Origin: a virus
Taxonomy: Duplodnaviria > Heunggongvirae > Uroviricota > Caudoviricetes
DNA length: 64,000 nucleotides
IMG/VR virus record: IMGVR_UViG_3300021138_000001
Direction: 5' to 3' (one strand)
Part shown: positions 13,881 through 63,397 of the stretch, piece after piece
Numbering within the stretch: position 1 is the stretch's first letter
Layout: every line of letters starts with the position of its first letter
Notes under the pieces: generated by a model
Database searches by the model: none
What the model was told of the DNA's origin: nothing
The model's input: only the letters and a program-made list of their open reading frames with translations
Made by a program: the position numbers and the translations under genes

Positions 13881-14107
13881 TATTCCTCTACTATTCTAAA
13901 TGCTTTTCTAGACACTATTGTATCATAATTACGGCCCTTAAGTCTAATCAAAAGACCATCACCTATACCAGAATATTGATGAGCAGATTCTACTTCCCAT
14001 ACTATACCAATTTCGCTCCACCATTGCGGATCATTAAATGTAATTTTCGTTCCTGGTGTAATTATTAAATCTTGCATATCATATTTTCCATGTTTTAAAT
14101 AGTACAA
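13880..14107 (-). CDS. Hypothetical protein
   Basis: 75-aa ORF coupled between nrdA-c and nrdB. Confidence 0.55.
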   Translation of the reverse strand: MYYLKHGKYDMQDLIITPGTKITFNDPQWWSEIGIVWEVESAHQYSGIGDGLLIRLKGRNYDTIVSRKAFRIVEE

Positions 14108-15099
14108 CTATCACAATTTTCTTCGTCAGTGTCACCTTTCGCCAGTTCTTCTACCCTCATTTCACCAGCACCATCATTCGTATTATTATAATAAAGCGTC
14201 TTAATACCATACTTATATGCCATCAAAATATGCTTTAACATTTCCGATAATGGAATCTTTTCATCAGGATAGAACTTTGGATTATAAGAAGTATTAGTAG
14301 AAATAGATTGGTCAATCCACTTTTGTAATACAGCCATAATCTTTAGATATCCTTCTGGTGAAGATTGGTCCCACAGAAGTTCATACTTATTTTTAAGTTT
14401 GCGCACTTCGGGAACAACTTGCTTTAATACACCTTCACGAGAACTCTTAATCGACACTAAAGCACGCGGAGGTTCAATTCCATTTGTAGAATTAGACACT
14501 TGAGCAGAAGTTTCTGCTGGCATTAGAGCCATTAGAGTAGAGTTACGAATGCCGTATAGATCAGCTTCTTCACGAAGAAGATTCCAGTCCATGGACACAG
14601 GACGCGAAGTTAATTCATCAACCTCCTTCTTATATGTATCTATAGGAAATTGGCCATGCCCATACTTAGTTTCATACCACTTATCACAGGCTCCCTTTTC
14701 TTTGGCTAGATCAATAGAAGCTTTAATTAGATAATAAGACCAAGCTTCTGTATATTGGTCAATTAAATCTAGATTGGGATTAGTATAGGTCATATCGTTC
14801 TTAGCCATCCAATATGCTAGATTGATAATACCAATACCTAAAGGGCGACGATTCATTGTAGAAAGTTGTGCAGCAAGAACAGGGTAACTCTGATAATCAA
14901 GTAGAGCATCAAGAGCGCGTACTGCTAGAGTACAGGGCTTTTCAAAATCAGATGTCTTTTTAATTTTACCCCAATTTATCGCACTCAAAGTGCATAAGCT
15001 AATCTCAGATTTACAATCCGATTCAAATATATCAGTCACATATACATGATCTGAATCATCATGATCAATATTATCAACAATTTCGTATTTAAAATTCAT
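14095..15099 (-). CDS. nrdA: Ribonucleotide reductase alpha subunit, C-terminal fragment (nrdA-c)
   Basis: EISLCTLSAINW (Cys462 equivalent), RRPLGIG, MPAETS, KTLYY, terminal CDSC; own AAGGA RBS. Confidence 0.95.
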   Translation of the reverse strand: MNFKYEIVDNIDHDDSDHVYVTDIFESDCKSEISLCTLSAINWGKIKKTSDFEKPCTLAVRALDALLDYQSYPVLAAQLSTMNRRPLGIGIINLAYWMAKNDMTYTNPNLDLIDQYTEAWSYYLIKASIDLAKEKGACDKWYETKYGHGQFPIDTYKKEVDELTSRPVSMDWNLLREEADLYGIRNSTLMALMPAETSAQVSNSTNGIEPPRALVSIKSSREGVLKQVVPEVRKLKNKYELLWDQSSPEGYLKIMAVLQKWIDQSISTNTSYNPKFYPDEKIPLSEMLKHILMAYKYGIKTLYYNNTNDGAGEMRVEELAKGDTDEENCDSCTI

Positions 15100-15691
15100 T
15101 ATATTTCCTTATATGTTTAGTGAAATTTCCTAAATCCCATTCTTTGTGACAACACACACAACATATTTTTTTACCCTGTAAATGAGATGTTCCATTTGGT
15201 GCTTTTTTGAGATTATATTTGCCTCGTTTTTTATTTAATTTAGATTTTCTCATTTTTTCTTTAGTTTTATCAGAAATGTGAATAACTCCACGCAAACCTT
15301 TATTCCAAGGAGTCTTTCCTTTCTTACTTAATGAAAGTTTTTTTCTATGTTCTATTGTTTGAGGTCTTTTAGGTATACCTTTTTGTGTTTTGCTAATTTT
15401 ATTTTTATGTTCTTCACTTAATCCCATTTTAGATGGGTTGTTTAGTTTCATTCTATTAGATGTATTTAAAGGGTGTTCTTTTGATTGCCAATAATGATCA
15501 TTATGCTCAATTTTATTTTTTTGTGCTTTAGAAAGGGTTTCTCTTACTTCTAACGATCTAATTTTTCCTTTATTGCTTTTAGATATTTTATCTGCGGTGG
15601 AAGAGCCTTTAACAATTCGTCCTAAAGAGGGCGAGATTTTATTTACAACGGCTTTGCTATTATTCCAAACTTCCCAATCATCTTTATACAT
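15089..15691 (-). mobile_element. NUMOD3-repeat protein (homing-endonuclease-like, no recognisable catalytic domain) inserted in nrdA
   Basis: Repeats SEEHKNKISKTQKG, TIEHRKKLSLSKKGKTPWNKG; C-terminal CxxC...GNFTKH. Confidence 0.7.
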
Positions 15692-15707
15692 TAGTTTAGT
15701 ATTAATA

Positions 15708-16703
15708 TCAGATTCGTATTTTTTTGCTTTTAATTGGGGTATTGGGATTTGATTTTTTCCATTCTAAATACTTTTTATATTCTTCTTTAGTCAGTTTCAT
15801 TACTTTAACTATTGGACTACCGTCTTTCAGATCATTTAATGGCTTAGTTGGAAGGGTAATTTCGGCGCAAAGATTTGATTGGCGAATTGGTGCGACTTCA
15901 GATAAAAATGAACCGTGATCATTACAATGATCCACATTCATTAGATATACACGTCCAGTATCCTTCCGTTCTTGAACAAATGATGAGAACATGTCAATTG
16001 CGGGTACTTGCTTTTTTCGCAGCTTTGGGTTGCGTTCTGCGCGCTCATATAATTCTCTAAATTTATTTGAGTCTACAAAGAATGCTTCATAGAGTTCTGG
16101 TACGTCATGGGGACTAAAGAGTGTGATATTTCCACCATTAATAAGTCGCTCATACATCACCTTATTGAATTGTACACCATAATCTAGATGTCGAATCCGG
16201 TTATCTTCAGTACCTTTATTATTTTTTAGGACTAAAAGTTCCTCCGCTTCCAAGTGCCAGATTGGGTAATATAATGTAGCCGCTCCTCCACGGACCCCCC
16301 CTTGAGAATTGTGAGTAAGAACCATTTCTGATTCTGGAGAATTTGCAGCAAAAAAAGTGTGTGTGTCTTCTACAGTAATATCAATATAATTAATTGAAGT
16401 ATTTCCTTTAGATACACTAATAATTTTAGTATGATTATTATCTGTTAAGATTTTATCAGAAAAAAGTAAATTATCTGGCAATACTGTAAATTGCATATTG
16501 TCTTTTTCAATCATTATTGGGTGATTTTTTGAACAATTTAATTCAGTTTTATTGTCAAAAATAAGAGTTCTTTGATCATCTATGCAAACTTCAGTTTCCC
16601 AAATGTCAGTTACAGTTTTAAAAACAACATTTTTGTTGGCATCTAAAGTTTTAATTTTCATACCAACTACCAAATCTTTTAGTTGAATTTTTTTAGTTTT
16701 CAA
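15708..16703 (-). CDS. nrdA: nrdA middle fragment (nrdA-b) preceded by 132-aa intein C-fragment
   Basis: TTG start after AAGGA; CSKNHP (block B), DITVEDTHTFFA (block F), THN|SQGGVRGGAATLYYPIW; QSNLCAEI (Cys439/Glu441 equivalents). Confidence 0.93.
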   Translation of the reverse strand: MKTKKIQLKDLVVGMKIKTLDANKNVVFKTVTDIWETEVCIDDQRTLIFDNKTELNCSKNHPIMIEKDNMQFTVLPDNLLFSDKILTDNNHTKIISVSKGNTSINYIDITVEDTHTFFAANSPESEMVLTHNSQGGVRGGAATLYYPIWHLEAEELLVLKNNKGTEDNRIRHLDYGVQFNKVMYERLINGGNITLFSPHDVPELYEAFFVDSNKFRELYERAERNPKLRKKQVPAIDMFSSFVQERKDTGRVYLMNVDHCNDHGSFLSEVAPIRQSNLCAEITLPTKPLNDLKDGSPIVKVMKLTKEEYKKYLEWKKSNPNTPIKSKKIRI

Positions 16704-17526
16704 TTTTATATTCCTTGATTTGCGGCTTATCCCAATTATGATATTGTATCATATGTTTACTAAAATTACCAAGATTATATTTTTTATTGTTATTACAATC
16801 AAAAGGACAAGCTCTATATTTATTTTTATCATTCATCGCACAATCAACACCATACTTTTCTATGTTTGTTTTTTTGCTTTTAAAATTTCTGTCTGTCCAA
16901 TCTTTTTCTTCCATAACTTTTTTATGTGTTTCTTTTGTTTTTTTATCAAACATCATATTTGTTACCCCATGTTTATCAAACATAACTTCTGATAATTTTT
17001 TTGGGTTTTTAAATGGGTTGTCTGTACCATATATTGTTTCTATAGAATTTTGTCTTGGAGTTTTTACTATATCTAAATCTAATGTATGGTGTTTTCCATA
17101 TTTTTTTATATTTGTTTTATATATTTTATCTTTTATTATTTTTGATCCTGATCCCCTTGAACCATATTTTTCTATTAATTTTGTATTTACTTTTTCTTGC
17201 ACTTTATCAAATTCAAAAGGAAATGGTCCTTCTATATTTAATGGAACCATATTATTATTCCATCTATTTAAATATTTTTTATTGTTTGGTATGTTTAATT
17301 TTTTAAGAACTTTGGTTTCCCATAATAATGCTGAATTCTTATCTTTAAAAACTTTTCTAATTTCTATTAGATTTGGTTCTCCATGTTTTTCAATAAACAA
17401 TTTTACATATTTTGAAGATGACATATAGGTACTGCCAATGTCTTCTAATTTTGCTTTTTTTGAATACCTAACTCCATAATAATATTTGTCTTGTTGTGTC
17501 CATCCTAGTAAATAAGTATAATACAT
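16693..17526 (-). mobile_element. GIY-YIG-variant homing endonuclease inserted inside the nrdA intein
   Basis: YYTYLLGW...YYYGVRY, YMSSS, WETKVL, YLN; TATAAATA at 17545-17552 and AAGGAG RBS. Confidence 0.85.
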
Positions 17527-17575
17527 ATTTTTCTCCTTTATACTTATTTATAGTTTTCTCTAACGCCACCCTGGC

Positions 17576-18481
17576 TTATTCCTCAATAACTTCGACCCAG
17601 GTTTCTGGAGTAAGACAACACGATTTAACAGCACTTTGAAAATGTTTATAAAAAGGTATAACTCCAGTATGACTAGCGTCACCATTACGAATGGGACTGC
17701 CAATAGCCCTAATACGACCAGCACCAATACCAATCCCAGCCTTTTGACTAACATACTTAACGACTGCTGCAGATGTTGCATTGATGGAATCGAGTGAGTC
17801 ATCAGTTTCGATAAGGACACATGAGCTAAACTGCCTTTGAGGCGTGCGAACTCCAGCCATAATAGGAGTAGGAAGGCTAATATCAAAAGTGCTAATGGCA
17901 TCATAAAATTCCTTTACCCATTTAAACCGATCTGTTGTGTATTTTGAAAATAGAGTCATTGCGATAAGAATGAATGACATTTGTGGTGTTTCATAGAACT
18001 TGCCCGTTACGCGGTTCTTAACAAGATACTTACCGCGAAGTTGTTCCATTGCCGCATAAGTCAGCAATTCGTCCCGAGAATGATCAATCAATGTGTCAGC
18101 AAACTTCCATTCGTCTGCAGTATATGCATCGAGTAGCTGACGATCATAATAACCTTCCTTTACTACATGTACGACATGAGTATATAGATTATCAGGAGTA
18201 AACCTACCATAAACTTCCTTACGAAGATTATAATTGATTAGGCGTCCCGCAACATATTGATAGTTTGGATGTTCTTCAGAAATCAATTCGGCAGTAGCCT
18301 TAATTAGAGTTTCTTGAATATCGGTTGACTTAATATTATTATAAAACTGAATCTGTGATTTAATTTCAATTTCAGATACAGATACTCCAGATAGACCTTC
18401 ACATGCTTGTTCAACTACCTTATGGAACTTGTTTAGATTTAACGGTTCTTTTGTTCCGTTGCGCTTAGTTACATTAATCAT
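17576..18481 (-). CDS. nrdA: nrdA N-terminal fragment (nrdA-a, ATP cone) ending in 13-aa intein N-fragment
   Basis: VTKRNG ATP cone, PTPIMAGVRT, SSCVLI, FQSAVKSC|CLTPETWVEVIEE-stop. Confidence 0.95.
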   Translation of the reverse strand: MINVTKRNGTKEPLNLNKFHKVVEQACEGLSGVSVSEIEIKSQIQFYNNIKSTDIQETLIKATAELISEEHPNYQYVAGRLINYNLRKEVYGRFTPDNLYTHVVHVVKEGYYDRQLLDAYTADEWKFADTLIDHSRDELLTYAAMEQLRGKYLVKNRVTGKFYETPQMSFILIAMTLFSKYTTDRFKWVKEFYDAISTFDISLPTPIMAGVRTPQRQFSSCVLIETDDSLDSINATSAAVVKYVSQKAGIGIGAGRIRAIGSPIRNGDASHTGVIPFYKHFQSAVKSCCLTPETWVEVIEE

Positions 18482-37423: not shown

Positions 37424-37811
37424 TTATGCCACCTTGTTCTTGTCTTTTTCTTATAACTGCAAGTTGAGCATCAGATAAAATAGAAATAGCCTGTTTAGCC
37501 TTTTCATTATTATATCCATAATAAGATTTCACCAATTCTAAATCATCTTCTGATACTTTCTTGACCCATTTGGCAAATCGCTTTTTGGGTCTGATAGTAT
37601 TTAGAAGATAATAGAATTGAAGTTTTCCACCCAACGCTGGATACATATTCATATCATTAGCATAAAACAAGGTGTCTGTAAAGTAAGACAATCCTTTATT
37701 TACAATCCACGCATTATATTCCTTTTCTATACGAGATGGATCGTCAGAGTCTCTGATTAAATCCACCTTGGTATTAGAAATCGCATTGACGAAATCAAAC
37801 GGATTTGCCAT
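37416..37811 (-). CDS. gp62: Clamp loader small subunit
   Basis: PFDFVNAI, YNAWIVNKGLSYF.D, IRPKKRF.KW.K. Confidence 0.93.
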   Translation of the reverse strand: MANPFDFVNAISNTKVDLIRDSDDPSRIEKEYNAWIVNKGLSYFTDTLFYANDMNMYPALGGKLQFYYLLNTIRPKKRFAKWVKKVSEDDLELVKSYYGYNNEKAKQAISILSDAQLAVIRKRQEQGGINE

Positions 37812-38542
37812 TACTTAAATTCGCAATCTGCCATAATTTCTGTTAGACATGCCATTAGATTAATTTCTTGGTCCGCAACAAAAGCAGCCTTATATTGATA
37901 CTGCCCAATATAAAGAACTAGTTGTGGAATAGAATCCTTAGCCATAAATTCAGAAGAAGCGTCATATAGCTTTCGGAAAAGTTCTGTAGAATCTTGGTCT
38001 GAGTTTTCAGCAACCCACTTACGAACCATTGGAAAGTTCTTATCTTTTAGAAATACAATAAGAGCCTTAAAGGATTCTTCACCCAAATTAACAAGAATGC
38101 CCGAGTCAATCTTTCCTGTGGCTGAGTAACGTTGAAGTTCATTCAGAACTCTACGCCAATCTGGAAAATACTTCATAATAATTGCCGCAACAGCTTCATT
38201 ATCAAAAGCCACAGTTTCTCGGTTCAGAATTATCTTTGTGCGCTTCATAAACTGAGCGGCAAGTTTTGGCATATCTGACTTTGAAATTTTAAAATTGATT
38301 ACTGAACACCGAGAGTGTAGGGGCTCGATAATACGATTAAAGAAGTTACATGTCAAGATAAATCCGCAATTGATGGAATATTCTTCCATAAAATTACGAA
38401 GTGCTGGCTGAGTTGAGTTGCAGTTATGAACAACTACTCCGGTCCCCGTAATAAAAGTATGATTTTTCTTTACCGTAACATCAACAACATTTCTATAACC
38501 AATCGGTATAATACTTTTCACATTTGAAACATCATAATTCAT
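37811..38542 (-). CDS. gp44: Clamp loader large subunit C-terminal part with 40-aa intein C-fragment
   Basis: VVDVTVKKNHTFITGTGVVVHN|CNSTQPALRNFMEE; FILTCN, PLHSRC, FPDWRRVLNELQRY. Confidence 0.93.
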   Translation of the reverse strand: MNYDVSNVKSIIPIGYRNVVDVTVKKNHTFITGTGVVVHNCNSTQPALRNFMEEYSINCGFILTCNFFNRIIEPLHSRCSVINFKISKSDMPKLAAQFMKRTKIILNRETVAFDNEAVAAIIMKYFPDWRRVLNELQRYSATGKIDSGILVNLGEESFKALIVFLKDKNFPMVRKWVAENSDQDSTELFRKLYDASSEFMAKDSIPQLVLYIGQYQYKAAFVADQEINLMACLTEIMADCEFK

Positions 38543-39386
38543 AATTAATATCGCCGTCCTTTTTTGTGGTAGTTTCACGCCATTTCGATATTCTTTGTTT
38601 CTTTTTTTCTTCAGATTCTTTTAATCTATATAATTTTTGGCTGTCTGATATTTTTTTCTTAACTTCTGGTGTATTAGTATTGGGTGTGTTTTTAACTAAG
38701 CCTTTTAACCAACCATCTGGTATAATGTCATTTGATCCAAACATCTTACCCATTTTAGTTAAAGGATTATGATAACAAACTTTACCCTTTTTACTATCTG
38801 ATATCTTCGTATTAGGTCCTCTTTTTTTTGAAAGTCTATTTTTAGGATATGGTTTAGGAACCCATTGTGAACATAGTTGAATTCTATCATTTAACAACTT
38901 TAAAATTCTTTTATATGATCTATTTCTATTCATTAAAATTTTAATATATTTCTCAAGAATAGGTATTTTAGATGGATGTAGTTTAAAATTTTTATTTCTA
39001 ACGTTTTTAATTAAATTTTGTAAAGTTTTGGTTCTTTTTACTTTTTCACGAATTTTACCTATTTTCATAGGATTTTCATCAAATTTTTTAAAAGCAGGCG
39101 CACAATGTGCATTCAAGAAATGTGGGTTTTTGTGTACTTTTACTTTACTCAAAAACTTATATTCATGTAAAATTGCATCATCTATATTATCAAAAACCCT
39201 ACATATTTTTATTATATCGGGGTTACCATTATTTTTTACAAATTCTTTAACTATAGTAGAAGATGTGAAATATTCAACCCAAATATCACCAACATATGAT
39301 TTTTTAGATATTCTGACACCATAATACCAAATTTTATATTTAGACCAACCTATAGCATAAGTATAAGGTTTATAGATTTTATTCAT
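38532..39386 (-). mobile_element. GIY-YIG-variant homing endonuclease between gp44 split-intein halves
   Basis: PYTYAIGW...WYYGVR, YFTSS, HEYKFL, FLN; late promoter 39409-39416; GGAG RBS before ATG 39386. Confidence 0.85.
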
Positions 39387-39433
39387 GATCGACTCCATAT
39401 TACAAATCTATTTATAAGATGAAGCCGATTATT

Positions 39434-40066
39434 TTAATCCTTTTCGATAATTATTTTAAATTCGTCTAAACCTTCACTTATTGTTCTAGTAACGATATTA
39501 CCTTCCTTATCTTGACAGATTAGTGGATGATCTTCTGTACATCGGATTGTTTTTCCACATTCAAGCACAATTTCATAGACCATTTTATTTGTTCTATTCG
39601 CTATTTCTGCAGTATCTTCTTCAAAAATGTGTGTTTCGGTATTAAAAGAAATCACATTATATTCTAGGCCGTCTTTCATATCGCCAAGACGCACGAGTTC
39701 GCCGTTTGAAAGTTTAATAAATTCGTTCTCATCTAGACAGTTTAGATAATCTGCTTCGTCAAGAATTACATATTTACGGCCACCAGAAAAAGAAACTGAT
39801 GATGCGAAGTTTTGAATTTCGGTACGTAAGGTATCGATGTTACCATTCATCGATCCGTTGATTACGATATAATCACAACCAAGTTCTTCTAGCATAGCTC
39901 GCGCTACTGTAGTCTTACCTACACCAGCAGAACCACATAGAATTAGATTTGGAATATTCTTATTGTCTACAAATTGCTGAAACATATTCTTCAAATCCTC
40001 TGGAAGAATAGTCTCAGCAATTGTCTTTGGGCGATATTTTTCACACCACAAAAATTCATCATTCAT
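39434..40066 (-). CDS. gp44: Clamp loader large subunit N-terminal part with ~101-aa intein N-fragment
   Basis: WCEKYRP, GSAGVGKTT, ILDEADYLN|CLDENEF...IRCTEDHPL. Confidence 0.94.
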   Translation of the reverse strand: MNDEFLWCEKYRPKTIAETILPEDLKNMFQQFVDNKNIPNLILCGSAGVGKTTVARAMLEELGCDYIVINGSMNGNIDTLRTEIQNFASSVSFSGGRKYVILDEADYLNCLDENEFIKLSNGELVRLGDMKDGLEYNVISFNTETHIFEEDTAEIANRTNKMVYEIVLECGKTIRCTEDHPLICQDKEGNIVTRTISEGLDEFKIIIEKD

Positions 40067-41334: not shown

Positions 41335-41409
41335 TGGTCCGGGTGGCTGGGATTGAACCAACGACCCCTCGCTCCCAAAGCGAGTGCTCTACCTCTGAGC
41401 TACACCCGG
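41335..41409 (-). tRNA. tRNA-Pro (UGG)
   Basis: TT-TGG-GA loop, 7-bp acceptor stem, CCA. Confidence 0.95.
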
Positions 41410-41416
41410 ATAATAT

Positions 41417-41446
41417 TGGAGTTCCTGATGGGATTCGAACCCACAC
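41417..41446 (-). pseudogene. tRNA 3'-half remnant (T-arm, acceptor strand, CCA)
   Basis: GTGGGTTCGAATCCCATCAGGAACTCCA with no upstream D or anticodon arm. Confidence 0.6.
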
Positions 41447-41464
41447 ATATCTCATTATATTAGA

Positions 41465-41539
41465 TGGAGGCTTGACCGAGAATCAAACTCGGATAGAAGG
41501 TTTTGCAGACCTTTGCATAAATCATTCTGCCATCAAGCC
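41465..41539 (-). tRNA. tRNA-Cys (GCA)
   Basis: CT-GCA-AA loop, GGCTTGA/TCAAGCC stem, CCA. Confidence 0.9.
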
Positions 41540-41636
41540 GTATAATTCATTGAATTTTTCTATATTTTCTTGTAACTCTTTTAAAGTTATAAAACTTTTT
41601 GTGTTCTTTTTTTGATTATTGGTATGTCTTACCAAT

Positions 41637-42239
41637 TTACAATTTGCATTTTTTCTTATGAATTGTCATTGGACCTTTAGTTGTAATTAATCCACAATTA
41701 CATTTTATTTTTTTATTATTAATGCTATTTATGCTTAAAGACGAAGCTTTACCAGCAATTCCAGTCTGAAATCCAGATGTTTTTAGTTCTCCAGTTTTTC
41801 TACCGCCATTACCGGTCTTATTATATTTTAATAAATTTGTTATAGCAACTTTACCACCAAGATGACCATAAAAACTTCTTTCTTCTTTAGAAAATGTACT
41901 AAATTTAGATATTCTTTTGTTTTTTTCATATGTCCAATTTAGTCCATGTTGATTAATATAACCAAATCCACCTTGGCCACCAACACACATATTATAAGTA
42001 TCTTCTCTTAAACAAAATTCTTCAGAAACTAATTCTTTTTCTTTAATATTCATTTCTTCTTCATTATCAAAAATGAATAAAAATTCTTTTACAAAATTTT
42101 CAATACCATATTTTTTAATAGCACGTTTAAGATGTTTCCCAGAACCCATATAATTGTCATTTATATTTTTAGTTTGGTGTTTACCAATATAAATCTTGTT
42201 ATCTAATATATTAGTAATTTTATATATAGTGTAAAACAA
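41637..42239 (-). mobile_element. Seg-like GIY-YIG homing endonuclease in tRNA cluster
   Basis: YTIYKITN.L..KIYIGKHQT, YMGSG, E..L, YN motifs; TTG start. Confidence 0.88.
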
Positions 42240-42246
42240 AGTTATT

Positions 42247-42300
42247 CCCCGAAGTTATATAGCAAGTTTTATTGACATTACTATTTATATAACTTCGGGG
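42247..42300 (-). promoter_or_regulatory. 15-bp perfect inverted repeat covering a late promoter and the endonuclease RBS
   Basis: CCCCGAAGTTATATA (42247-61) and TATATAACTTCGGGG (42286-300); TATAAATA at 42282-89. Confidence 0.85.
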
Positions 42301-42306
42301 CGCGTG

Positions 42307-42392
42307 CGGAAAGCTGAAGTGTCGATCTCCATACCGGTCAAGGTACCACTAGTTTTCAAGACTAGGTCAGCCGCCGGGCTGATTAACTTTCC
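42307..42392 (-). tRNA. tRNA-Ser (UGA), CCA not encoded
   Basis: CT-TGA-AA loop, long variable arm, GGAAAGT/GCTTTCC acceptor stem, ATCG T-loop. Confidence 0.85.
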
Positions 42393-42399
42393 TTAATAT

Positions 42400-42864
42400 T
42401 TATTTGTGTTGATCTAAATCTATATGATGTACATCAACATGACTATCGCCCCTAAGATGTGCCGCCATAACTGCATGGTGACCATCTACCACATACCGTT
42501 TGCCTTTGTGAGTAGCAACTCGAATGTGACTAGGATTCTTTTCTGCAATCTTATCCTTTACTCTATCAGGATTATCCGTCCTATTAAAGGGTTGTGTTGC
42601 ATGTAAAGATTTAACTTCCATCCTTTCTGGCTTATAATGTGTCTGGTGCCCAGAATTATAAAACGGAGCAACTCTATCTAATTTTCTTTCGACAGAATCA
42701 ACAGATTTTCTATTATAAGATGAAAGGGGAACATGTTTTCCCTTTTCGGCTTTTAACCATTTGCCGTAATTGGTTCTCTTACCATAACGCCTTGCAACTC
42801 TATGTGCAAGTTTTTCTGGATCAACTTTACGATCTTCGTTTAAAAAGCCTAAAAATGATAACAT
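42400..42864 (-). CDS. ParB/Srx-like domain protein with capsid-targeting-like N-terminus
   Basis: MLSFLGFLNED start; RYVVDGHHAVMAA; late promoter 42886-42893. Confidence 0.65.
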   Translation of the reverse strand: MLSFLGFLNEDRKVDPEKLAHRVARRYGKRTNYGKWLKAEKGKHVPLSSYNRKSVDSVERKLDRVAPFYNSGHQTHYKPERMEVKSLHATQPFNRTDNPDRVKDKIAEKNPSHIRVATHKGKRYVVDGHHAVMAAHLRGDSHVDVHHIDLDQHK

Positions 42865-42901
42865 TATTTTCTCCAAATAAAAATATATTTATAGAAAATG
42901 A

Positions 42902-42977
42902 TGGCTGGATAGACAGGGCTCGAACCTGTGACATTCTGGTTAACAGCCAGACGCTCTACCAACTGAGCTACTATCCA
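42902..42977 (-). tRNA. tRNA-Asn (GUU)
   Basis: CT-GTT-AA loop, canonical arms, CCA. Confidence 0.95.
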
Positions 42978-42987
42978 TCATAATATA

Positions 42988-43653
42988 TTATTTAGTCTTT
43001 GCTTCAGTAGCAACCCAATACGTTAGTGGTAATCCAGAGTATTTATCAATTGTCGCAAACTTTACTACACCATCACCAACAGTAACACGATAATTATCCT
43101 TAATAAACTTAAAATTTTCTGGCTTAAAGAAAATTTTAAAATTCTTATCTGTCTCACCAACGTCCATACTAAACATATCAGCAGACGGCGTTTTTGGGTT
43201 TACCGCACGAACTGATAGTGTGCCTTCATCACCAATAAAAGAAATCATTGGCATCTGAAGAATAGAACCAGCTTCCTTTAGCTTAGAAAGTTGTTCATTA
43301 GTTAAGTCAAATTCTACTACAATATCATCAAATACAATCTCAGACCTAAGAGGATAAGCAATCATCGACTCTGAAGCATAAACATAATTAATGCGTTGCT
43401 TACCAGAACTAATGGTAACAAAATCTTCTTGGAAATCAAAGTCTGGATCATCAAACAGCGAAATTGTACCCAAGAACCTTGATAGATCATATATACAGAA
43501 CTTTTCTGAAAATCTATCTCGAATCTCTGCCGTCGCAAGGATTGTCTTAGCGGTGTTGGTAGTACTAAGAACATTCCCTGGACGAACAAAGATAGAGGTA
43601 TTGATAGTTGAAAAATTCTTTAAGATTTGTAGAGTACGTTCACTCAATTTCAT
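42988..43653 (-). CDS. gp45: Sliding clamp
   Basis: MKLSERTLQILKNFSTIN.SI, F.IYDL.RFL motifs; next to gp44/62. Confidence 0.95.
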   Translation of the reverse strand: MKLSERTLQILKNFSTINTSIFVRPGNVLSTTNTAKTILATAEIRDRFSEKFCIYDLSRFLGTISLFDDPDFDFQEDFVTISSGKQRINYVYASESMIAYPLRSEIVFDDIVVEFDLTNEQLSKLKEAGSILQMPMISFIGDEGTLSVRAVNPKTPSADMFSMDVGETDKNFKIFFKPENFKFIKDNYRVTVGDGVVKFATIDKYSGLPLTYWVATEAKTK

Positions 43654-43736: not shown

Positions 43737-44887
43737 TTAGCGTTTCTTACCTAGTTTACTTGGATCGACAGTTGCGGCAGCACCAACAGAAGCCAGATCA
43801 GCGAGAGAACCACCGAAGATGTAAGAACCAACATGTTGTAGCTGAACCCAAGGAGCCAACCAAACCTTAATACCAGCCTTACGAGCCTTTTGGCAGAACC
43901 AATAATCTTCTGATAGATAACGCTTAGATTCTGGATCGATTTCAGCTTGGAAGAATTGAAGAATTTCACGCGAACCATCAAAGGCTGCAGTACGAACATG
44001 GTCTGGGCGATATGAATACTCAGGATAGGTTTCAGCAAACTTCAGAACGGCTGACTTCTTAATCATCATGAAACCAGTGCCAGATTCTAGAACTTCAACC
44101 GGCTCGCCGAGAGGAATTTCTGTAACACCGCCAACTGGATTGAAGACATAATCACCAACAAACTTTTCTAGAACATTTGCGTCTTCGTCAGCAATACCCA
44201 TATCGACAGCAGCCTTTACCTTTTCCCAAGAAATACACTTCTTTGGATATGGACCACACAAGATATCGTATTCACTATCTTCGCTCATCAATGCAAGGAA
44301 AGTGATAATATCTTGGGCATTAAATCCAATATCGGAGTCAATAAAGATCATATGAGTACAATCTGACCGTATGAATTCGTCCATGCAATAGTTGCGTGCG
44401 CGAGTAATTAGAGACTCGTTAAAGAGATAATAAAATCGTAGTTCGATTCCATAATGTACGGCTGCTGCTGCTAGATCATTAGTTGATCGACAGAACATAC
44501 CAGCACACTGACCCATTTATGTTCATTTGATTTCGTTAGAATCAAACCGTTTTTAAACTGCTTTATGTTTCCATAAAGATCAGACTATATCTTCACCCAT
44601 TATTGGGGCTATGCATTTCAGATCACTTGATCTTACTCCCTGTTGGGATAGTCGTTGAACCTTCACCGTATTGGCGCTTGGCTGCTGATTGTCCAATCCT
44701 ATAACTTTTTATAGCATTCATATCTTTTATGATATTGTAGCATATAGGCTCTAAGGAGTTTCCAGCAATTAACATAGTTATCTATACTTAATTACTCAAG
44801 TAAGAGGCAGTATTATTTACCATACATAGGTGCTGCAACAAAAAGCTTGCGCTTTCTTAGCTCGTTTATATCAATTTTTATTTCCAT
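43737..44887 (-). CDS. GT-A fold glycosyltransferase-like protein; two exons (44819-44887 and 43737-44513)
   Basis: Spliced reading MEIKIDINELRKRKLFVAAPMYG|GQCAGMF; ESLITRARN, FIDSD (DxD), GTGFMMI, SEDYWFC. Confidence 0.85.
44514..44818 (-). ncRNA. Group I self-splicing intron, 305 nt, no internal ORF
   Basis: P AATTGCTGGAAA, Q AATCAGCAG, R GTTCAACGACTA, S AAGATATAGTCT in order; 5' exon ends in U, intron ends in G; removal restores frame. Confidence 0.92.
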
Positions 44888-44914: not shown

Positions 44915-45641
44915 TTAGGTTTTATTCACACTTCTATAGAAATTTACTCTTCCGGTTTTATATCCCAAATTTAAATGTTGATCAACATTTTTTTGTTTAA
45001 TTCTAAAATTTTTATTATTAAAATTCATCCAAACAGTTTCTTTTGCAACATTTATTTCTAAACAAGCGTCTTTGTGTTTTTGTTTTTTTATAGGATCATT
45101 AAATTGTTCTTTTGTTTTATTTCTAAGATGTTCTCTATTTGATCCATCTACCATTCTTTTTTTGTTTATAATACGTAAATTATTTTTTTCTTGTTCTGTT
45201 ATATGTCTACCGTATCTTTTTTTACGTTCTTCCACAGAAACAATATCTTTAATTGATATTCCTTTATTATGGGGTGTTTGTCCAGGCTTAAATCTTCCAG
45301 AGTTTATGTCTTCCGATTTTACAATTTTTCCAGTAGTGTTTCTACCGTTTAGATATTTCTTATTGTTTTCTGCATTTATTTTTTTTTAAAACGGTTTGTT
45401 CCCAAATAAATGCAGAATTACAATCTTTAAATATTTTTCTTATTTGAATAATATTTGGAGAACCATGTTTTTCTGTATATTTTTTTACAATTTTACTCGA
45501 AGTAAAATATGTTATCCAAAGATCATTTGGGTGACATCCTTTGGCATAACGAACACCGTAATACCATTTATTTTCAGAAGACCATCCGATTAAATATGTA
45601 TAGGGTGTTCTATCCGTTGATGTGTGTTTATAAATAACCAT
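44915..45641 (-). pseudogene. Frameshifted GIY-YIG-variant homing endonuclease
   Basis: PYTYLIGW...WYYGVRY N-terminus; frame breaks in A9 run (45379-45387); one A fewer continues KKINAENNKKYLN into the 44915-45235 ORF; late promoter 45705-45712. Confidence 0.8.
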
Positions 45642-45717
45642 GCTGATTCTCCTAAACAGAATTAGAGTAGGTGGGATTCTTGGGTGTCTCCGCGACCTAC
45701 ATTCTATTTATAAAGAA

Positions 45718-46032
45718 TTATTTTTCACCTTTGGGTTGATTATATTCTGAGTCATGTACATATAGTTGCATGATGGCGTAATGAATAACTTTCATCATAT
45801 CTTTTCGCCAATCTACAGGGGTTCCCTTATGACCATAACGCTGAGCATACTTCAAAACATTTCCAACACAAAATCCGGTACCATGACCACCGTCAATAAT
45901 AAATTCTGTAGCTTGAAATTTATTTTGGGAATAATGCTGATTGTAGGTGTCATCAATATACTCCGTAATTTCGCGGAGAAGTTTTCCCTCGTTGTATTTA
46001 TATTCTAATTTAGTAATGTCGCGAACCAACAT
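45718..46032 (-). CDS. Conserved phage protein (DUF3310-like)
   Basis: QHYS, GFCVGNVLKYAQRYG.K...D..KVIHYA pattern. Confidence 0.7.
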   Translation of the reverse strand: MLVRDITKLEYKYNEGKLLREITEYIDDTYNQHYSQNKFQATEFIIDGGHGTGFCVGNVLKYAQRYGHKGTPVDWRKDMMKVIHYAIMQLYVHDSEYNQPKGEK

Positions 46033-46277
46033 TAAACATGTTCACCAATTGCAGTTAGATATAGGTCTAGGATAGCCTGTTCTTCTTGACGCTTTGCGCG
46101 ATCTTGCTTACGTAGACGAACAATTTTACGAACAACCTTACCATCAAAACCTTCACCCTTTAGTTCGGCATAGATTTCCTTACGGTCTACCTTTAGAGCG
46201 TCAAGATCTTCTTCTATGTTTTCAATACGCACAATAAAATCCTTTAGACGATTGGCAGAAACTGGAGTCTCATTCAT
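46032..46277 (-). CDS. gapR: GapR-like (DUF2312) nucleoid-associated DNA-binding protein
   Basis: RLKDFIVRIE.IEE......D.KEIYAE.KGEGFD.KVVRKIVRLRKQD...R.EE.AILDLY. Confidence 0.9.
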   Translation of the reverse strand: MNETPVSANRLKDFIVRIENIEEDLDALKVDRKEIYAELKGEGFDGKVVRKIVRLRKQDRAKRQEEQAILDLYLTAIGEHV

Positions 46278-46653: not shown

Positions 46654-47352
46654 ATGTTAATTTATCTATATGTAAAACAATGCTCTCATTGTAATCTAAA
46701 ATATTTTGGTAAAACTACTAATAATAACCCGAAAAAATATCGCGGTTCAGGAAAATATTGGTCGCGCCACATTAAATCATATAATTCAACAGTTAAAACT
46801 ATTAATATTTGGAAATTTGATGATATTGATATATGCAATGCCTTTGCATTAAATTTTTCAAAAGAAAATAATATAGTCGAATCTGAAGAATGGGCAAATT
46901 TAATATTAGAAAATGGTATTGATGGATTTCCTCCCGGAATAGAATTTTCTAAAAAACATAAAAATAATATAAAATTAAATCATCGTGATGTTTCTGAAGA
47001 AAAAAACCCTATGTATGGAAAAAATCATACTGAAAAATCTAAACGATTAATGAGACAAAAAAGAAAAATATACTTTGAAAATGGAAATAAAGGATCAATG
47101 TATAAAAAACATCATACAGAACATACAAAAAATATTATAAGTAAAACTAGCAAAAATAGATTTGTAAATGGATCAAAAAGTTTAGAAAAAATATTAATTA
47201 CAAAATCTACTGGAACTTGGATTACTCCTTGGGGAACATTTTCTTCGGCTAATCAAGCTTCAAAATCCCCAAAGGCAAAATACTCAGCAAGTCATATTTT
47301 AAAACTGTGCAGAAACAACACTCAAGGTTATAGTTATTTACCTAAAATTTGA
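46654..47352 (+). mobile_element. GIY-YIG homing endonuclease with NUMOD3, opposite to flanking genes
   Basis: IYLYVK......LKYFGKT, YRGSG, WANL..E, NPMYGKNHTE motifs. Confidence 0.85.
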
Positions 47353-47859
47353 TAAGTTATATTTTATTCCTGTTTTTTTATTACATTTTTTTAATGACAT
47401 TTCTAATTCTAATTTAGAAACATAATCTTTCCAAGATTCACCATTAATGTGAGTCATTTCATGAAGGAAACATCGTGCAGTCATACCCTCAAATCTTAGA
47501 GTCTGTGCTGAGCCATTTGGATTGTTAAATCTAACTTTAATCCAAAGGGGGCGCTTCACCTTAACAAGCAATCCCGGATATGACAAACATCCCTCTTCAA
47601 GAGTTATCATTTCGTCTGATACATGAAGAATTTTTGGATTAATTACACAATAAATTGGCGAAGATTGCAATACAAAAATCTTGTATGGGTACCCAACTTG
47701 ATTTGCAGCCAATCCCAATCCACGATTTTCCCGCATAGCATCAACCATTTTATATGAAAAATTTATAATGTCAAATTGTGGATTTTTGAAATCAAATTTT
47801 TCACATGGTTGATGTAGTATAGGGTCATTGTAAGGGACTAATTTTAGTTTGTCAATCAT
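47338..47859 (-). CDS. def: Peptide deformylase
   Basis: GLGLAANQVG, EGCLSYP, HEMTH motifs. Confidence 0.93.
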   Translation of the reverse strand: MIDKLKLVPYNDPILHQPCEKFDFKNPQFDIINFSYKMVDAMRENRGLGLAANQVGYPYKIFVLQSSPIYCVINPKILHVSDEMITLEEGCLSYPGLLVKVKRPLWIKVRFNNPNGSAQTLRFEGMTARCFLHEMTHINGESWKDYVSKLELEMSLKKCNKKTGIKYNLSNFR

Positions 47860-59898: not shown

Positions 59899-60849
59899 AT
59901 GGGTCATTATGTAGTAACTGGTGCATGTGGATATATTGGTTCTGTTCTTAGTAAGAAACTTAAGGAACATGGTCATAAAGTAACGACTGTTGATCTAAAG
60001 GCAACCTATCCACTTTATACGGATGATCATTGGGCTAATACCTGTTTTAGTTCAGAATTATTTTTAAAGAATATTATTGAAAAACGTGTAGATGGTATTT
60101 TTCATTTAGCAGCACATAGTTTACTTGGTCCATCTGTAGCAGATCCACTCCCATACTTTATAAATAATGCAGGACGAACCGCAGAAATGGTTCATACCCT
60201 TGTCAGCAACGGTTGGCAAGGTAAGTTTGTTTTCTCAAGCACTGCTGCTACCTATGGCGCACAAAAACATATGGTCATTGAAGACTCTCCAAGAATGCCA
60301 ATAAATCCATATGGTATTTCAAAACTTCATGCTGAAGATATTCTTGAACAAGCATATGATGCATATGGCTTTTCGTCTGTAATTTTCAGATTCTTTAATG
60401 TGTCTGGTGCAGATGGTGATGTTGGTCAAGATCGAAACGAACCGCATATTCTAACACAAATGTCCAAGGCTGCTAAGGCTGGTACAACATTTAAGCTATA
60501 TGGTGATGATTATCATACTAAAGACGGAACTTGTGTTCGTGATTATGTGCATGTTCTAGATGTCGTTAATGCGCATCTTCTCGCCTTAGATTTGTTAGAT
60601 GAATATCAAGGAACTTTTGTATTTAACCTTGGAAAGTCTCATGGAACATCAAATCTAGAATTGGTAGAAGCCTTCCGAAATATCACTGGAATAGACCTTG
60701 ATTATGAAATCGTAGATCGCCGTCCAGGTGATCCAGACTTTCTAGTCGCCGATTCATCCAGATTTACACAATATACTGGGTATATGTTCCCAGAAAGCAA
60801 TTTACAAAATATTATTTCTAGTCAATGGGAGTGGTTTAATTATGAGTGA
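59899..60849 (+). CDS. galE: UDP-glucose 4-epimerase-like extended SDR
   Basis: TGACGYIGS, FSSTAATYG, YGISK, RFFNVSGA, DGTCVRDYVHV. Confidence 0.92.
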   Translation: MGHYVVTGACGYIGSVLSKKLKEHGHKVTTVDLKATYPLYTDDHWANTCFSSELFLKNIIEKRVDGIFHLAAHSLLGPSVADPLPYFINNAGRTAEMVHTLVSNGWQGKFVFSSTAATYGAQKHMVIEDSPRMPINPYGISKLHAEDILEQAYDAYGFSSVIFRFFNVSGADGDVGQDRNEPHILTQMSKAAKAGTTFKLYGDDYHTKDGTCVRDYVHVLDVVNAHLLALDLLDEYQGTFVFNLGKSHGTSNLELVEAFRNITGIDLDYEIVDRRPGDPDFLVADSSRFTQYTGYMFPESNLQNIISSQWEWFNYE

Positions 60850-61840
60850 GTATACGCCGTTCGAACGGAATGAACTTAATAAGAATTCGCAAGGCGGAAC
60901 TGAAGTTATGGTCGAGGGTATGCTTTCCCGAGTAGACCCAGAGCTTTTACAAAATTTTCAAATTATTCCATCACGAGTTCGTAATCTTCGTGATGATAAG
61001 ATTCGTATTATGTGGCTTCATGATCTACCTTGGGACCCAGAAACAAATCATCTAAAGGATGAATCTTCTCGTTCCAGGTTCCACAAGATTGTATATTGCG
61101 GCCATTGGCAAATGACTCAATATCAGAACTTCCTTGGTATTCCTCATGACCAAAAAACTTCTGTAATCGAAACTGCAATCGTACCTTTTGATTATGTAGA
61201 AAAGTCTAAGAATGAAATTCGACTGGTTTATACATCTACTCCACAGCGTGGTCTAGAAATTTTAATTCCAGTATTTGAAGCTCTTGCAGAAAAGTATGAT
61301 AATATTGTTCTAGATGTATTTTCTTCATTTAAGATTTATGGGTGGGAAGATGCAGATAAACAATATGAGCCGCTATATGAACGTTGTCGTCAGCACCCAA
61401 AGATTAATTATCATGGATTTGTTCCTAATGATGTAGTTCGGCAAACTGTTCAGAGGGCTCATATTCTAGCATATCCTTCGATCTGGCTTGAGTGTAACTC
61501 TAAGTCTTTAATTGAAGCTATGTCTGCTGGTGCAATGTGTGTTCATCCAAATTATGGGGGTCTTGTCGATACTGCTGGTGGTCTTACCACAATGTATAAT
61601 TGGGACCTAGATAAGAATATTCATGCCAATATTTTTTATCAGGCTCTAGATCAAGCAGTATCAGTAATTCATCAAGATCAAGTTCAGAACTATCTTCGAT
61701 TTGTAAAACAATATGCTGATGGGCGTTACAATTGGAACAAGATTTCTAATCAATGGACAGGAATGTTGAATGGTCTTCTTCAACAATATGAAGGTCAAGA
61801 CCTAAGCGCAAAGCAAATTCTAACATTTAGAACGACATGA
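60842..61840 (+). CDS. Glycosyltransferase, GT-B fold (family 4-like)
   Basis: GGTE, YTSTPQRGL, YPS.W.E......EAMSAG. Confidence 0.88.
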   Translation: MSEYTPFERNELNKNSQGGTEVMVEGMLSRVDPELLQNFQIIPSRVRNLRDDKIRIMWLHDLPWDPETNHLKDESSRSRFHKIVYCGHWQMTQYQNFLGIPHDQKTSVIETAIVPFDYVEKSKNEIRLVYTSTPQRGLEILIPVFEALAEKYDNIVLDVFSSFKIYGWEDADKQYEPLYERCRQHPKINYHGFVPNDVVRQTVQRAHILAYPSIWLECNSKSLIEAMSAGAMCVHPNYGGLVDTAGGLTTMYNWDLDKNIHANIFYQALDQAVSVIHQDQVQNYLRFVKQYADGRYNWNKISNQWTGMLNGLLQQYEGQDLSAKQILTFRTT

Positions 61841-62823
61841 TTTTAACAAAAGCACCATTGCGGGTTTCGTTCTACGGGGGCGGCACGGACCTTGCTTCTC
61901 ATTATAGAGAGCATGGTGGCGCAGTACTATCTGCTGCAATAAACAAGTATATGTACATTGCGATAAACAAGACACCTATTGATCATGTTAAATTGATGTA
62001 TTCTGAAATTGAAACTGTTCAAGATTATAAAAATCTAAAACATGATATTGTAAGAAATGCTATTGAATATTATAGCGATAAACACAAAACCGGATTAGAA
62101 ATTGCGTCATTTGCTGATGTCCCAACAGTAGGAACTGGATTGGGATCATCGTCAACATTTTCTGTAGCACTTATTCAAAATCTTATGGAATTGAATATTA
62201 AATCGTTTATGCCCAGACATCAAAAGATTGCTGAGTGGGCTTGTGATCTAGAGATTGATAAGTGTGGCTCTCCTATCGGAAAGCAGGACCAATATGCTGC
62301 GGCATATGGCGGAATGAATTTGTTTGAATTTAAGCCTGATGAATCTGTTATAGACACGCCGACAGTTAGTCATTATGCCATGACTGAAAATCTATTACTT
62401 TTCTATACTGGAAGAAAGCGTTCTGCTAATTTAATTTTAGAAAAACAAAATGCAGAACCAAAACACGACATTCTTTCTAAAATGACTGATCAAGCAATCT
62501 TAGGTTTTCGTTATTTAAATTCAAAACAATATGATGATTTTGGTATGATGCTTGATGAAGCATGGAATCTAAAGAAACAATTAACCGATGGTATTTCTGA
62601 TCCTGAATTGGATGAGATTTATAAATCCTCTATGTCTGCTGGTGCATATGGTGGCAAGATTCTTGGTGCTGGTGGAGGAGGATATTTTCTTTTTTATGTA
62701 CCACTAAACAAACAAGCCCATGTCATAAAAGAAATGAATGATAAAGGATTATCCTTACAAGGTTTTAATTTCTCACGTACTGGAGTGGAGACTGTTTATA
62801 ATGACTATAACAACAACTTTTAA
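61837..62823 (+). CDS. hddA: D-glycero-alpha-D-manno-heptose-7-phosphate kinase (GHMP)
   Basis: KAPLRVSFYGGGTD, GTGLGSSS, GKQDQYAAAYGG, GKILGAGGGG. Confidence 0.9.
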   Translation: MILTKAPLRVSFYGGGTDLASHYREHGGAVLSAAINKYMYIAINKTPIDHVKLMYSEIETVQDYKNLKHDIVRNAIEYYSDKHKTGLEIASFADVPTVGTGLGSSSTFSVALIQNLMELNIKSFMPRHQKIAEWACDLEIDKCGSPIGKQDQYAAAYGGMNLFEFKPDESVIDTPTVSHYAMTENLLLFYTGRKRSANLILEKQNAEPKHDILSKMTDQAILGFRYLNSKQYDDFGMMLDEAWNLKKQLTDGISDPELDEIYKSSMSAGAYGGKILGAGGGGYFLFYVPLNKQAHVIKEMNDKGLSLQGFNFSRTGVETVYNDYNNNF

Positions 62824-63397
62824 AGAATATACTAACGATTTAAATCATGCTATGTGGTCAGTTGATACTACATGTCTAGATGCTGCTGCTAGACTTATTG
62901 AAAAAACCATACAGACAGATAATACCATTTATGTCTGTGGTAATGGTGGTTCGGCAGCTATCGCAAATCATTTGGTGTGTGACTGTATGAAAGGTATTTC
63001 TACCAGTACCCAATTAGAACCAAGAATCGTATCCCTTGTTTCTAATGTGCCATTAATGACTGCTATAGCTAATGACATGTCTTATAATTCAATTTTTTCA
63101 TATCAAGCCAAGAAACTTATGAAAAAGGGTGATATTTTAATTACAATTTCTTCATCTGGCAATTCTCCTAATATTCGAGAGGCTCTTGAGTTTTGTCATA
63201 TATCAGGATTTGAAAGTATTGCTATGTGTGGTTTTGATGGTGGAGCATCATTGAAGGCAACAATTCCTCTTCATGTCAAATCAAAAAATTATGGAATCGT
63301 GGAAGATTGTCACCAAAGCCTTATGCACATGATTGCACAATATTTGCGCAAATCCAATCTGAACCCACATATTGATCCAAACACCCTTATTTACTAG
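62801..63397 (+). CDS. gmhA: Sedoheptulose-7-phosphate isomerase
   Basis: CGNGGSAA.A.H, TAIAND, ISSSGNSPNI, YGIVED.H motifs. Confidence 0.93.
   Translation: MTITTTFKEYTNDLNHAMWSVDTTCLDAAARLIEKTIQTDNTIYVCGNGGSAAIANHLVCDCMKGISTSTQLEPRIVSLVSNVPLMTAIANDMSYNSIFSYQAKKLMKKGDILITISSSGNSPNIREALEFCHISGFESIAMCGFDGGASLKATIPLHVKSKNYGIVEDCHQSLMHMIAQYLRKSNLNPHIDPNTLIY

What the first reader, a model, noticed from the sequence alone, without database searches (positions are those of the whole stretch)
44514..44818. ORF-less group I intron inside a phage glycosyltransferase-like gene
Seen: P, Q, R and S core elements in order. The 5' exon ends GGU and the intron ends in G. Removing it restores PMYG|GQCAG in frame, and the ORF-track start Met is really the last three intron bases. 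Known: phage group I introns mostly sit in DNA metabolism genes (td, nrdB, nrdD, DNA polymerase) and a few others such as psbA. A glycosyltransferase host is unusual to my knowledge and suggests the gene is under strong selection.
Basis: partly seen in the sequence, partly recalled or inferred. Interest (0 to 1): 0.78.

Follow-up and report, generated by a model that had tools for sequence, protein, structure and literature searches.

The report
Self-splicing intron in phage glycosyltransferase
A genuine 305-base group I (self-splicing type) intron splits a conserved sugar-transferase gene of an uncultured T4-like freshwater phage, and a broken selfish DNA-cutting gene right beside it probably spread it; the partnership is a known kind, but the host gene is unusual and is also a target of inteins.

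Summary
Confirmed. [quoted passage not shown] Removing it gives a 281-aa protein that matches 77 uninterrupted homologs at PMYG|G. Sixteen further loci (about 12 more lineages) carry a 251-337 nt intron at this exact site; it is patchy on the host tree, and intron similarity does not follow host similarity. Such a gene precedes 11/17 intron loci but 3/71 intronless ones, with HNH or GIY-YIG-like heads on one shared C-terminal domain. In four loci a duplicated exon-1 stub ends within -6 to +12 bases of the intron site, which suggests the nuclease cuts there: collaborative homing. The host has a GT-A fold, lies beside gp45 in 79/80 loci, and homologs carry inteins at four other sites; its substrate is unknown. 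Splicing and cleavage are not shown. No paper found reports a glycosyltransferase host, but this scan noted similar intron-nuclease pairs in phage glycosyltransferases of other genomes. New member of a known kind.

The parts
44514..44818 (-). ORF-less group I intron, 305 nt, IA-type (extra stems P7.1 and P7.2)
   Evidence: RF00028 79.2 bits, E 2.3e-20; boundaries from intronless homologs; covariation
44819..44887 (-). Exon 1 of the GT-A gene: 23 codons ending PMYG, last base U; AAGGA 6 nt before the start
43737..44513 (-). Exon 2 of the GT-A gene: 258 codons plus stop, with D82-x-D84 and EDY motifs (spliced numbering)
   Evidence: (phrog_1574, E 4e-55)
44806..44821 (-). P1 helix (44821-44818 with 44809-44806) with the U·G pair at the 5' splice site; guide bases 44811-44809 also form P10 with the first three bases of exon 2
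44609..44777 (-). Core: P3 (44777-44772/44614-44609), P4 (44767-44762/44688-44683), P6 (44682-44680/44661-44659), P7.1 (44648-44637), P7.2 (44633-44620)
44583..44653 (-). P7 guanosine-binding helix (44653-44649 with 44587-44583), invariant in 13 introns
44527..44578 (-). P9 (44578-44561) and a further 3' stem (44546-44527) before the terminal G at 44514
44915..45641 (-). Free-standing homing-endonuclease-like gene (GIY-YIG/Seg-like head, shared C-terminal domain), broken by a frameshift in the run of nine A at 45387-45379
   Evidence: (phrog_314, E 1.4e-4); same letters in contigs of three other runs
45705..45712 (-). T4-type late promoter motif TATAAATA upstream of the endonuclease gene
   Evidence: consensus match only
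42988..43653 (-). gp45 sliding clamp, the constant downstream neighbour
45718..46032 (-). DUF3310 gene, the usual upstream neighbour (58/80 loci)

Best explanation
The stretch is a functional group I ribozyme (IA-type) inserted between two Gly codons at the end of the first beta-strand of a conserved GT-A glycosyltransferase of T4-like phages. Shown: sequence, structure, boundaries, restored frame. Inferred from established group I chemistry: a free guanosine bound in P7 attacks the U·G site in P1, P10 aligns exon 2, the terminal G is released, and the 281-aa enzyme is translated. Inferred for mobility: the intron has no nuclease of its own and spreads by collaborative homing with the free-standing endonuclease gene just upstream. 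That enzyme would cut intronless alleles at or near PMYG|G; repair from the intron-bearing genome copies nuclease gene, exon 1 and intron together, and the intron protects its own allele by splitting the target. In this phage the nuclease gene is frameshifted, so the pair is probably now immobile while the intron stays under selection to splice. Confidence: intron 0.97; collaborative homing 0.7.
For: RF00028 79.2 bits. 99% of cells paired and 14 of 40 pairs with two-sided changes across 13 introns, 0/500 shuffles, slid controls 31-47%. P10 follows the wobble base of exon 2: third pair Watson-Crick in 12/13; shuffle P 0.014, total length P 0.0013. Same insertion site in 17 loci, all GGU|...G. 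Patchy on the host tree: 9 changes, at least 6 forced by well-supported branches. Intron identity is unrelated to host identity (rho 0.08); L127/L090 introns are 94% alike in hosts 68% alike. Upstream nuclease gene in 11/17 intron loci versus 3/71 intronless (Fisher p 1e-7; 3/3 versus 3/71, p 3e-4, in the set found by exon 2 alone). All 8 IMG/VR hits of the shared C-terminal domain are intron loci (partly circular). Exon-1 stubs before the nuclease gene in L115, L117, L121, L171 end at -6, +9, +12 and about 0 from the intron site. L117 differs from its intronless sister L037 (about 91% DNA identity) by one block: nuclease gene, new exon 1 and intron.
Against: No RNA or cleavage data. Six of 17 intron loci have no intact nuclease upstream (one, L106, keeps a 13-codon remnant). 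Three intronless loci have a nuclease-like gene or remnant there (L007, L049, L078). Loci are related, so Fisher values overstate. Intron and nuclease C-domain identities do not correlate (rho -0.11), so partners are not faithfully co-inherited. This window has no exon-1 stub. The window's nuclease head matches a homing-endonuclease family only weakly (E 1.4e-4).
Confidence: 0.72

Rival explanations
1. Real intron, independent nuclease: the intron lost its own endonuclease long ago (or moves by reverse splicing), and the upstream nuclease performs ordinary intronless homing on a neighbouring gene; the two merely share a hotspot beside gp45.
For: Nuclease genes are common in this genome (17526-16693, 39398-38532, 47352-46654, 42239-41637). 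Three intronless loci have a nuclease-like gene upstream and six intron loci lack one. No correlation of intron and nuclease identities. PMC10448857 raises nuclease turnover as an origin of such loci.
Against: The strong association, the shared C-terminal domain scoring 50-97 bits in leave-one-out tests versus at most 32 in intronless loci, and the exon-1 stubs ending at the intron site.
Confidence: 0.22
2. The intron is a dead relic and the gene is either a pseudogene or is translated from the intron's terminal AUG as a 259-aa protein.
For: An AUG in frame ends the intron in the window and in most homologous introns; the adjacent nuclease gene is broken; P1 has only four pairs.
Against: No Shine-Dalgarno before that AUG; the product would lack the first beta-strand of the GT-A fold; L127 and L090 introns end AAG; core helices are intact and covary; both exons are open and 87% identical to the intronless protein.
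Confidence: 0.04
3. Assembly artefact or chance motif match.
For: The fast Rfam scan gave no hit; no single contig from other runs spans the whole intron with both exons.
Against: E 2e-20 in the sensitive scan; 16 other loci with the same insertion; contigs of other runs cross the 3' junction (X3, X4, X5) and the 5' junction (X2) with no differences.
Confidence: 0.01

Closest known systems
Collaborative homing pairs: cyanophage S-PM2 psbA intron with F-CphI; T3/T7-like phages; ICP1 terminase intron with an adjacent T5orf172 nuclease (PMC3984707, PMC2988022, PMC10448857)
   Same: ORF-less group I intron in a conserved phage gene with a free-standing endonuclease gene beside it; in ICP1 also next to a short N-terminal exon.
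   Different: Host is a GT-A glycosyltransferase; HNH and GIY-YIG/Seg-like heads alternate on one C-terminal domain across loci; exon-1 stubs mark the insertion point; cleavage is not demonstrated; the nuclease here is frameshifted.
Phage subgroup IA2 introns (T4 td, nrdB, nrdD; Twort) - subgroup from my own knowledge
   Same: P/Q/R/S core, P7.1 and P7.2 stems, U·G in P1, terminal G; distant DNA matches are to phage group I introns.
   Different: No intron-encoded nuclease; best cultured-phage matches are only about 70% identical over the core; subgroup models were not available.
T4 mobE trans-homing of the nrdB intron (PMC2790892, as listed; PMC2988022)
   Same: A neighbouring free-standing nuclease mobilises an intron that cannot move itself.
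   Different: There the intron keeps a defunct nuclease; here there is no remnant in the intron.
STIV A197 viral glycosyltransferase (PDB 2c0n) and GT-A enzymes (mimivirus R699, LH3, Mnn9, SpsA)
   Same: GT-A fold: Foldseek E 2.5e-8; Z 15.9, rmsd 2.9 over 172 residues; DxD motif.
   Different: About 20% identity or less; donor and acceptor unknown; no Pfam family passes its cut-off.

Membership tests
Group I intron | Covariance-model score above the RF00028 gathering threshold | tested here: met
   79.2 versus 50 bits, E 2.3e-20
Group I intron | P3-P4-P6-P7-P8 core with P, Q, R, S elements, supported by covariation | tested here: met
Group I intron | U·G pair at the 5' splice site in P1 and terminal G | tested here: met
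   13/13 aligned introns; 17/17 end in G after GGU
Group I intron | Precise removal restores a gene found uninterrupted in homologs | tested here: met
   281-aa ORF; 77 intronless loci
Group I intron | Guanosine-initiated self-splicing | not testable with these tools
   needs in vitro splicing or RT-PCR
Subgroup IA2 | Extra stems P7.1 and P7.2 between P7 and P3 | tested here: inconclusive
   Both stems visible, but subgroup models were not available and the criterion is from my own knowledge
Collaborative homing pair | Intron without its own endonuclease ORF | tested here: met
   251-337 nt, longest ATG ORF 50 codons or fewer in all 17
Collaborative homing pair | Adjacent free-standing homing endonuclease gene | tested here: met
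   45641-44915, frameshifted; HNH_3 E 3e-14 in L009, phrog_314 E 1.5e-13 in L171
Collaborative homing pair | The endonuclease cleaves the intron insertion site of intronless alleles | not testable with these tools
   Circumstantial only: exon-1 stubs end at -6 to +12
Collaborative homing pair | Joint transfer of nuclease gene and intron | tested here: inconclusive
   Association and the L117/L037 pair favour it; identities of the partners do not correlate
GT-A glycosyltransferase (host) | GT-A fold with DxD motif | tested here: met
   Model pLDDT 78.5; top structural matches are all GT-A; D82 and D84 98-99% conserved
GT-A glycosyltransferase (host) | Sugar transfer activity and acceptor | not testable with these tools
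   no data
TET-associated DNA glycosyltransferase (TAGT) | Match to Pfam PF20691 | tested here: not met
   P0001 gives only weak GT21 and Anp1 hits, while a neighbouring gene in L017 does match TAGT

The most novel reading that the evidence does not exclude
The host is an unrecognised essential core enzyme of the replication module of a large group of aquatic and soil T4-like phages, acting on phage DNA, and is parasitised like td or nrdA: one group I intron, inteins at four sites, and a family of free-standing nucleases that swap HNH and GIY-YIG-like heads on one targeting domain. The exon-1 stubs would record nucleases inserting at their own cut site, showing how collaborative-homing pairs first form, a step that PMC10448857 calls unclear.
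Probability: 0.25. Interest if true: 0.7.

Novelty: new member of a known kind. Interest (0 to 1): 0.45.

Why it matters
It adds a glycosyltransferase to the known hosts of phage group I introns and corrects a recurring annotation error: gene callers start this protein at the intron's last three bases. It supplies a natural series (intronless; intron plus intact nuclease; plus broken nuclease; plus remnant; intron alone; exon-1 stubs) in which collaborative homing, so far known from a handful of phages, can be tested with simple cleavage assays. The concentration of introns and inteins flags an uncharacterised GT-A gene, present in cultured phages phiM12, Cr30 and DLP6, as probably important, and its function can be tested in those phages.

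Tried and rejected
Rfam gathering-mode scan of the window missed the intron; the sensitive mode found it. A strict 5' junction pattern gave four unrelated hits. The metagenome pattern scan was mostly chance matches and added one new lineage, L171. Single-sequence AlphaFold of exon 2 was poor (pLDDT 47) and was not used. No solved structure matched by sequence. No RNA holder was listed among sequencing runs, so expression and splicing are untested; the laid contigs showed no intron-skipping joint, and contigs drop rare variants. The hairpin before the nuclease start is not more stable than shuffles (z -0.48). Sigma-70 promoter counts are at chance level. The careful tree did not finish; the quick tree was used, with L171, L041 and L008 left out as truncated. 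Hits in genome contigs are metagenome-assembled bins and were not analysed; they give no host assignment. Literature searches for group I intron plus glycosyltransferase, and intein plus glycosyltransferase, in phages found no report; the library lacks most subscription journals. Filing the host as a TAGT DNA glycosyltransferase was rejected. No whole genome was held.

Full report
Observation. The window is part of a T4-like phage (portal, gp21-23, nrdA/B, ThyX, gp41, gp43, gp44-47, gp55 by sequence), and the best-matching runs are freshwater metagenomes. On the minus strand, 44818-44514 interrupts an ORF after ATG TAT GGT. The P, Q, R and S elements lie in order at 44770, 44690, 44660 and 44593. 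Infernal scores RF00028 at 79.2 bits, E 2.3e-20. Removing the 305 nt joins 23 and 258 codons into a 281-aa protein; unspliced, the frame stops after PMYGK. The 259-aa ORF of the mechanical list starts at the intron's last three bases. Contigs from other runs cross each junction without differences.

Boundaries from homologs. Of the 80 closest IMG/VR loci found with exon 2 alone, 77 read PMYG-G contiguously, one is truncated, and two (L001, L009) have a group I intron at the same base. Pattern searches raised the set to 17 loci including the window, about 13 lineages after merging near-copies. All have exon 1 ending GGU, an intron of 251-337 nt ending in G, and no long ORF. Cultured relatives (DLP6 66%, Cr30 60%, phiM12 47%) are annotated as single hypothetical genes.

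Structure. On 13 aligned introns, 40 named pairs are formed in 99% of cells and 14 pairs show two-sided changes, mostly in P3, P5, P7.1, P8 and P9; P4, P6 and P7 are invariant; no shuffle reaches these values and slid partners give 31-47%. The structure was drawn from the window's sequence, which favours it somewhat. P1 has the U·G pair in all 13. The guide bases 5' of that G pair with the start of exon 2 (P10) and follow its wobble base: 12/13 Watson-Crick at the third pair, shuffle P 0.014; total paired length P 0.0013. Two extra stems after P7 suggest subgroup IA2 (own knowledge). This points to continued selection for accurate splicing; splicing itself is inferred from established group I chemistry.

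Mobility. On the host-protein tree the intron needs 9 changes, at least 6 forced by well-supported branches. Intron identity does not track host identity (rho 0.08); L127 and L090 share 94% of aligned intron bases in hosts only 68% alike. An ORF-less intron needs help to move like this. Directly upstream lies a homing-endonuclease-like gene, 45641-44915, preceded by a TATAAATA late-promoter motif. Its two halves match the intact L117 protein (68% over 75 aa; 40% over 142 aa) and are out of frame at a run of nine A (45387-45379). The same letters occur in contigs of three other runs, so this is not an assembly slip of one data set (the runs may be one campaign). Such a gene precedes 11 of 17 intron loci and 3 of 71 intronless ones (Fisher p 1e-7, or 3e-4 in the exon-2-only set; loci are related, so these are overstated). 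The 11 proteins share a C-terminal domain (leave-one-out 50-97 bits; intronless loci at most 32) but differ at the head: HNH in L009 (PF13392, E 3e-14), GIY-YIG/Seg-like in the window, L090, L115, L117, L119, L121, L171 (weak profile support for several). A profile of that domain retrieved only intron loci (8/8), though it was built from them. In L115, L117, L121 and L171 a second, truncated copy of exon 1 stands before the nuclease gene and ends at -6, +9, +12 and about 0 from the intron site; two stubs keep the uninterrupted junction. L117 and its intronless sister L037 are about 91% identical on both sides of one inserted block made of nuclease gene, new exon 1 and intron, and the stub is closer to L037's gene start (6 differences in 69) than the new exon 1 is (10). 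L106 keeps only the last 13 codons of the nuclease found in L090. The simplest reading is collaborative homing as described for S-PM2 psbA/F-CphI, T3-like phages and ICP1 terminase (PMC3984707, PMC2988022, PMC10448857), followed by nuclease decay. Against strict partnership: six intron loci lack an intact nuclease, three intronless loci have one or a remnant, and intron and nuclease identities do not correlate.

Host gene. An AlphaFold model of the 87%-identical intronless homolog (pLDDT 78.5) matches GT-A enzymes, best STIV A197 (E 2.5e-8; Z 15.9, rmsd 2.9, 172 residues). The intron sits in the loop after the first strand, which in GT-A enzymes contacts the donor nucleotide (own knowledge), at the 88th percentile of conservation among 104 diverse homologs. 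gp45 follows within 3 kb in 79/80 loci, and in phiM12 the gene lies directly between gp46 and gp45. More than 8000 homologs exist. Among 50%-cluster representatives, 22 long proteins show intein-type junctions before C66, C116, C230 or at position 243, with LAGLIDADG and intein domains confirmed in all ten scanned. Inteins and group I introns favour conserved sites (PMC2814812), so the gene behaves like a typical homing target. The acceptor is open. For DNA: position in the replication module, and a C5-methyltransferase or TAGT gene within 3 kb in 15 of 38 well-covered loci; related phage GT-A enzymes modify DNA (10.1101/2023.12.21.572611). For protein or another glycan: no TAGT match, no such cassette in this window's gp46-gp45 interval or in phiM12, best structural matches are protein- or glycan-acting enzymes, and the window holds a sugar-nucleotide cluster at 59899-63397. 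I put DNA at about 0.4 and virion or host protein/glycan at about 0.6, with low confidence.

Comparison and novelty. It is a member of group I by every feature testable here. It works like a collaborative-homing pair; membership waits on a cleavage assay. Phage group I introns are known in td, nrdB, nrdD, polymerase, helicase, lysis, capsid, tail, psbA and terminase genes (PMC3706429, PMC11878797), and their preference for nucleotide and DNA metabolism genes is called mysterious (PMC12350094). I found no paper with a glycosyltransferase host. This scan has, however, noted intron-plus-nuclease pairs in phage glycosyltransferases of several other genomes, and another note on this same stretch proposed the pair; I had reached that reading before consulting them and do not count them as support. 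I did not check whether those genes belong to this family.

Verdict. Real, well supported, a new member of a known kind. Interest 0.45: the element is ordinary, while the host gene, the intein hotspot, the head-swapping nucleases and the exon-1 stubs give a specialist something testable.

Noticed in passing
window 37811-40066 (-): gp44 clamp loader is split into two ORFs, each with an intein part, around a free-standing Seg-like endonuclease gene (38532-39398): a fractured-gene, split-intein layout.
   Followed up: partly
window 14095-18481 (-): nrdA appears in four pieces with intein-like segments and two intervening endonuclease-like ORFs (16693-17526, 15089-15691); the first is 59% identical to the head of the nuclease beside the intron.
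   Followed up: no
window 59899-63397 (+): Sugar-nucleotide cluster: epimerase, GT-B glycosyltransferase, GHMP kinase and SIS-domain isomerase, resembling a heptose pathway; a possible donor source for the GT-A.
   Followed up: partly
window 41338-42977 (-): tRNA genes with a SegE-type GIY-YIG ORF (41637-42239) and a ParB-like ORF (42400-42876) among them, between gp45 and gp44.
   Followed up: no
window 46035-46277 (-) and 47338-47859 (-): GapR-like DNA-binding protein (E 3e-26) and peptide deformylase upstream of the locus; GapR is an alphaproteobacterial protein by my knowledge, a hint at the host.
   Followed up: no
L085:2308, L088, L096, L237: Another group I intron-like element (Q, R, S motifs in order) after ...GSLMYG in a different, unidentified phage gene.
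   Followed up: no
P0121-P0231 (long homologs of the host): LAGLIDADG inteins at four sites of the same glycosyltransferase family; some proteins carry two.
   Followed up: yes
L002, L010, L011, L019, L020 and phiM12: A subset of homologs has an in-frame insertion of about 38 residues (320-aa form); not examined.
   Followed up: no
window 44700-44755 (-): The P5 region carries an extension of about 60 nt present in seven of 13 introns and absent in six.
   Followed up: no
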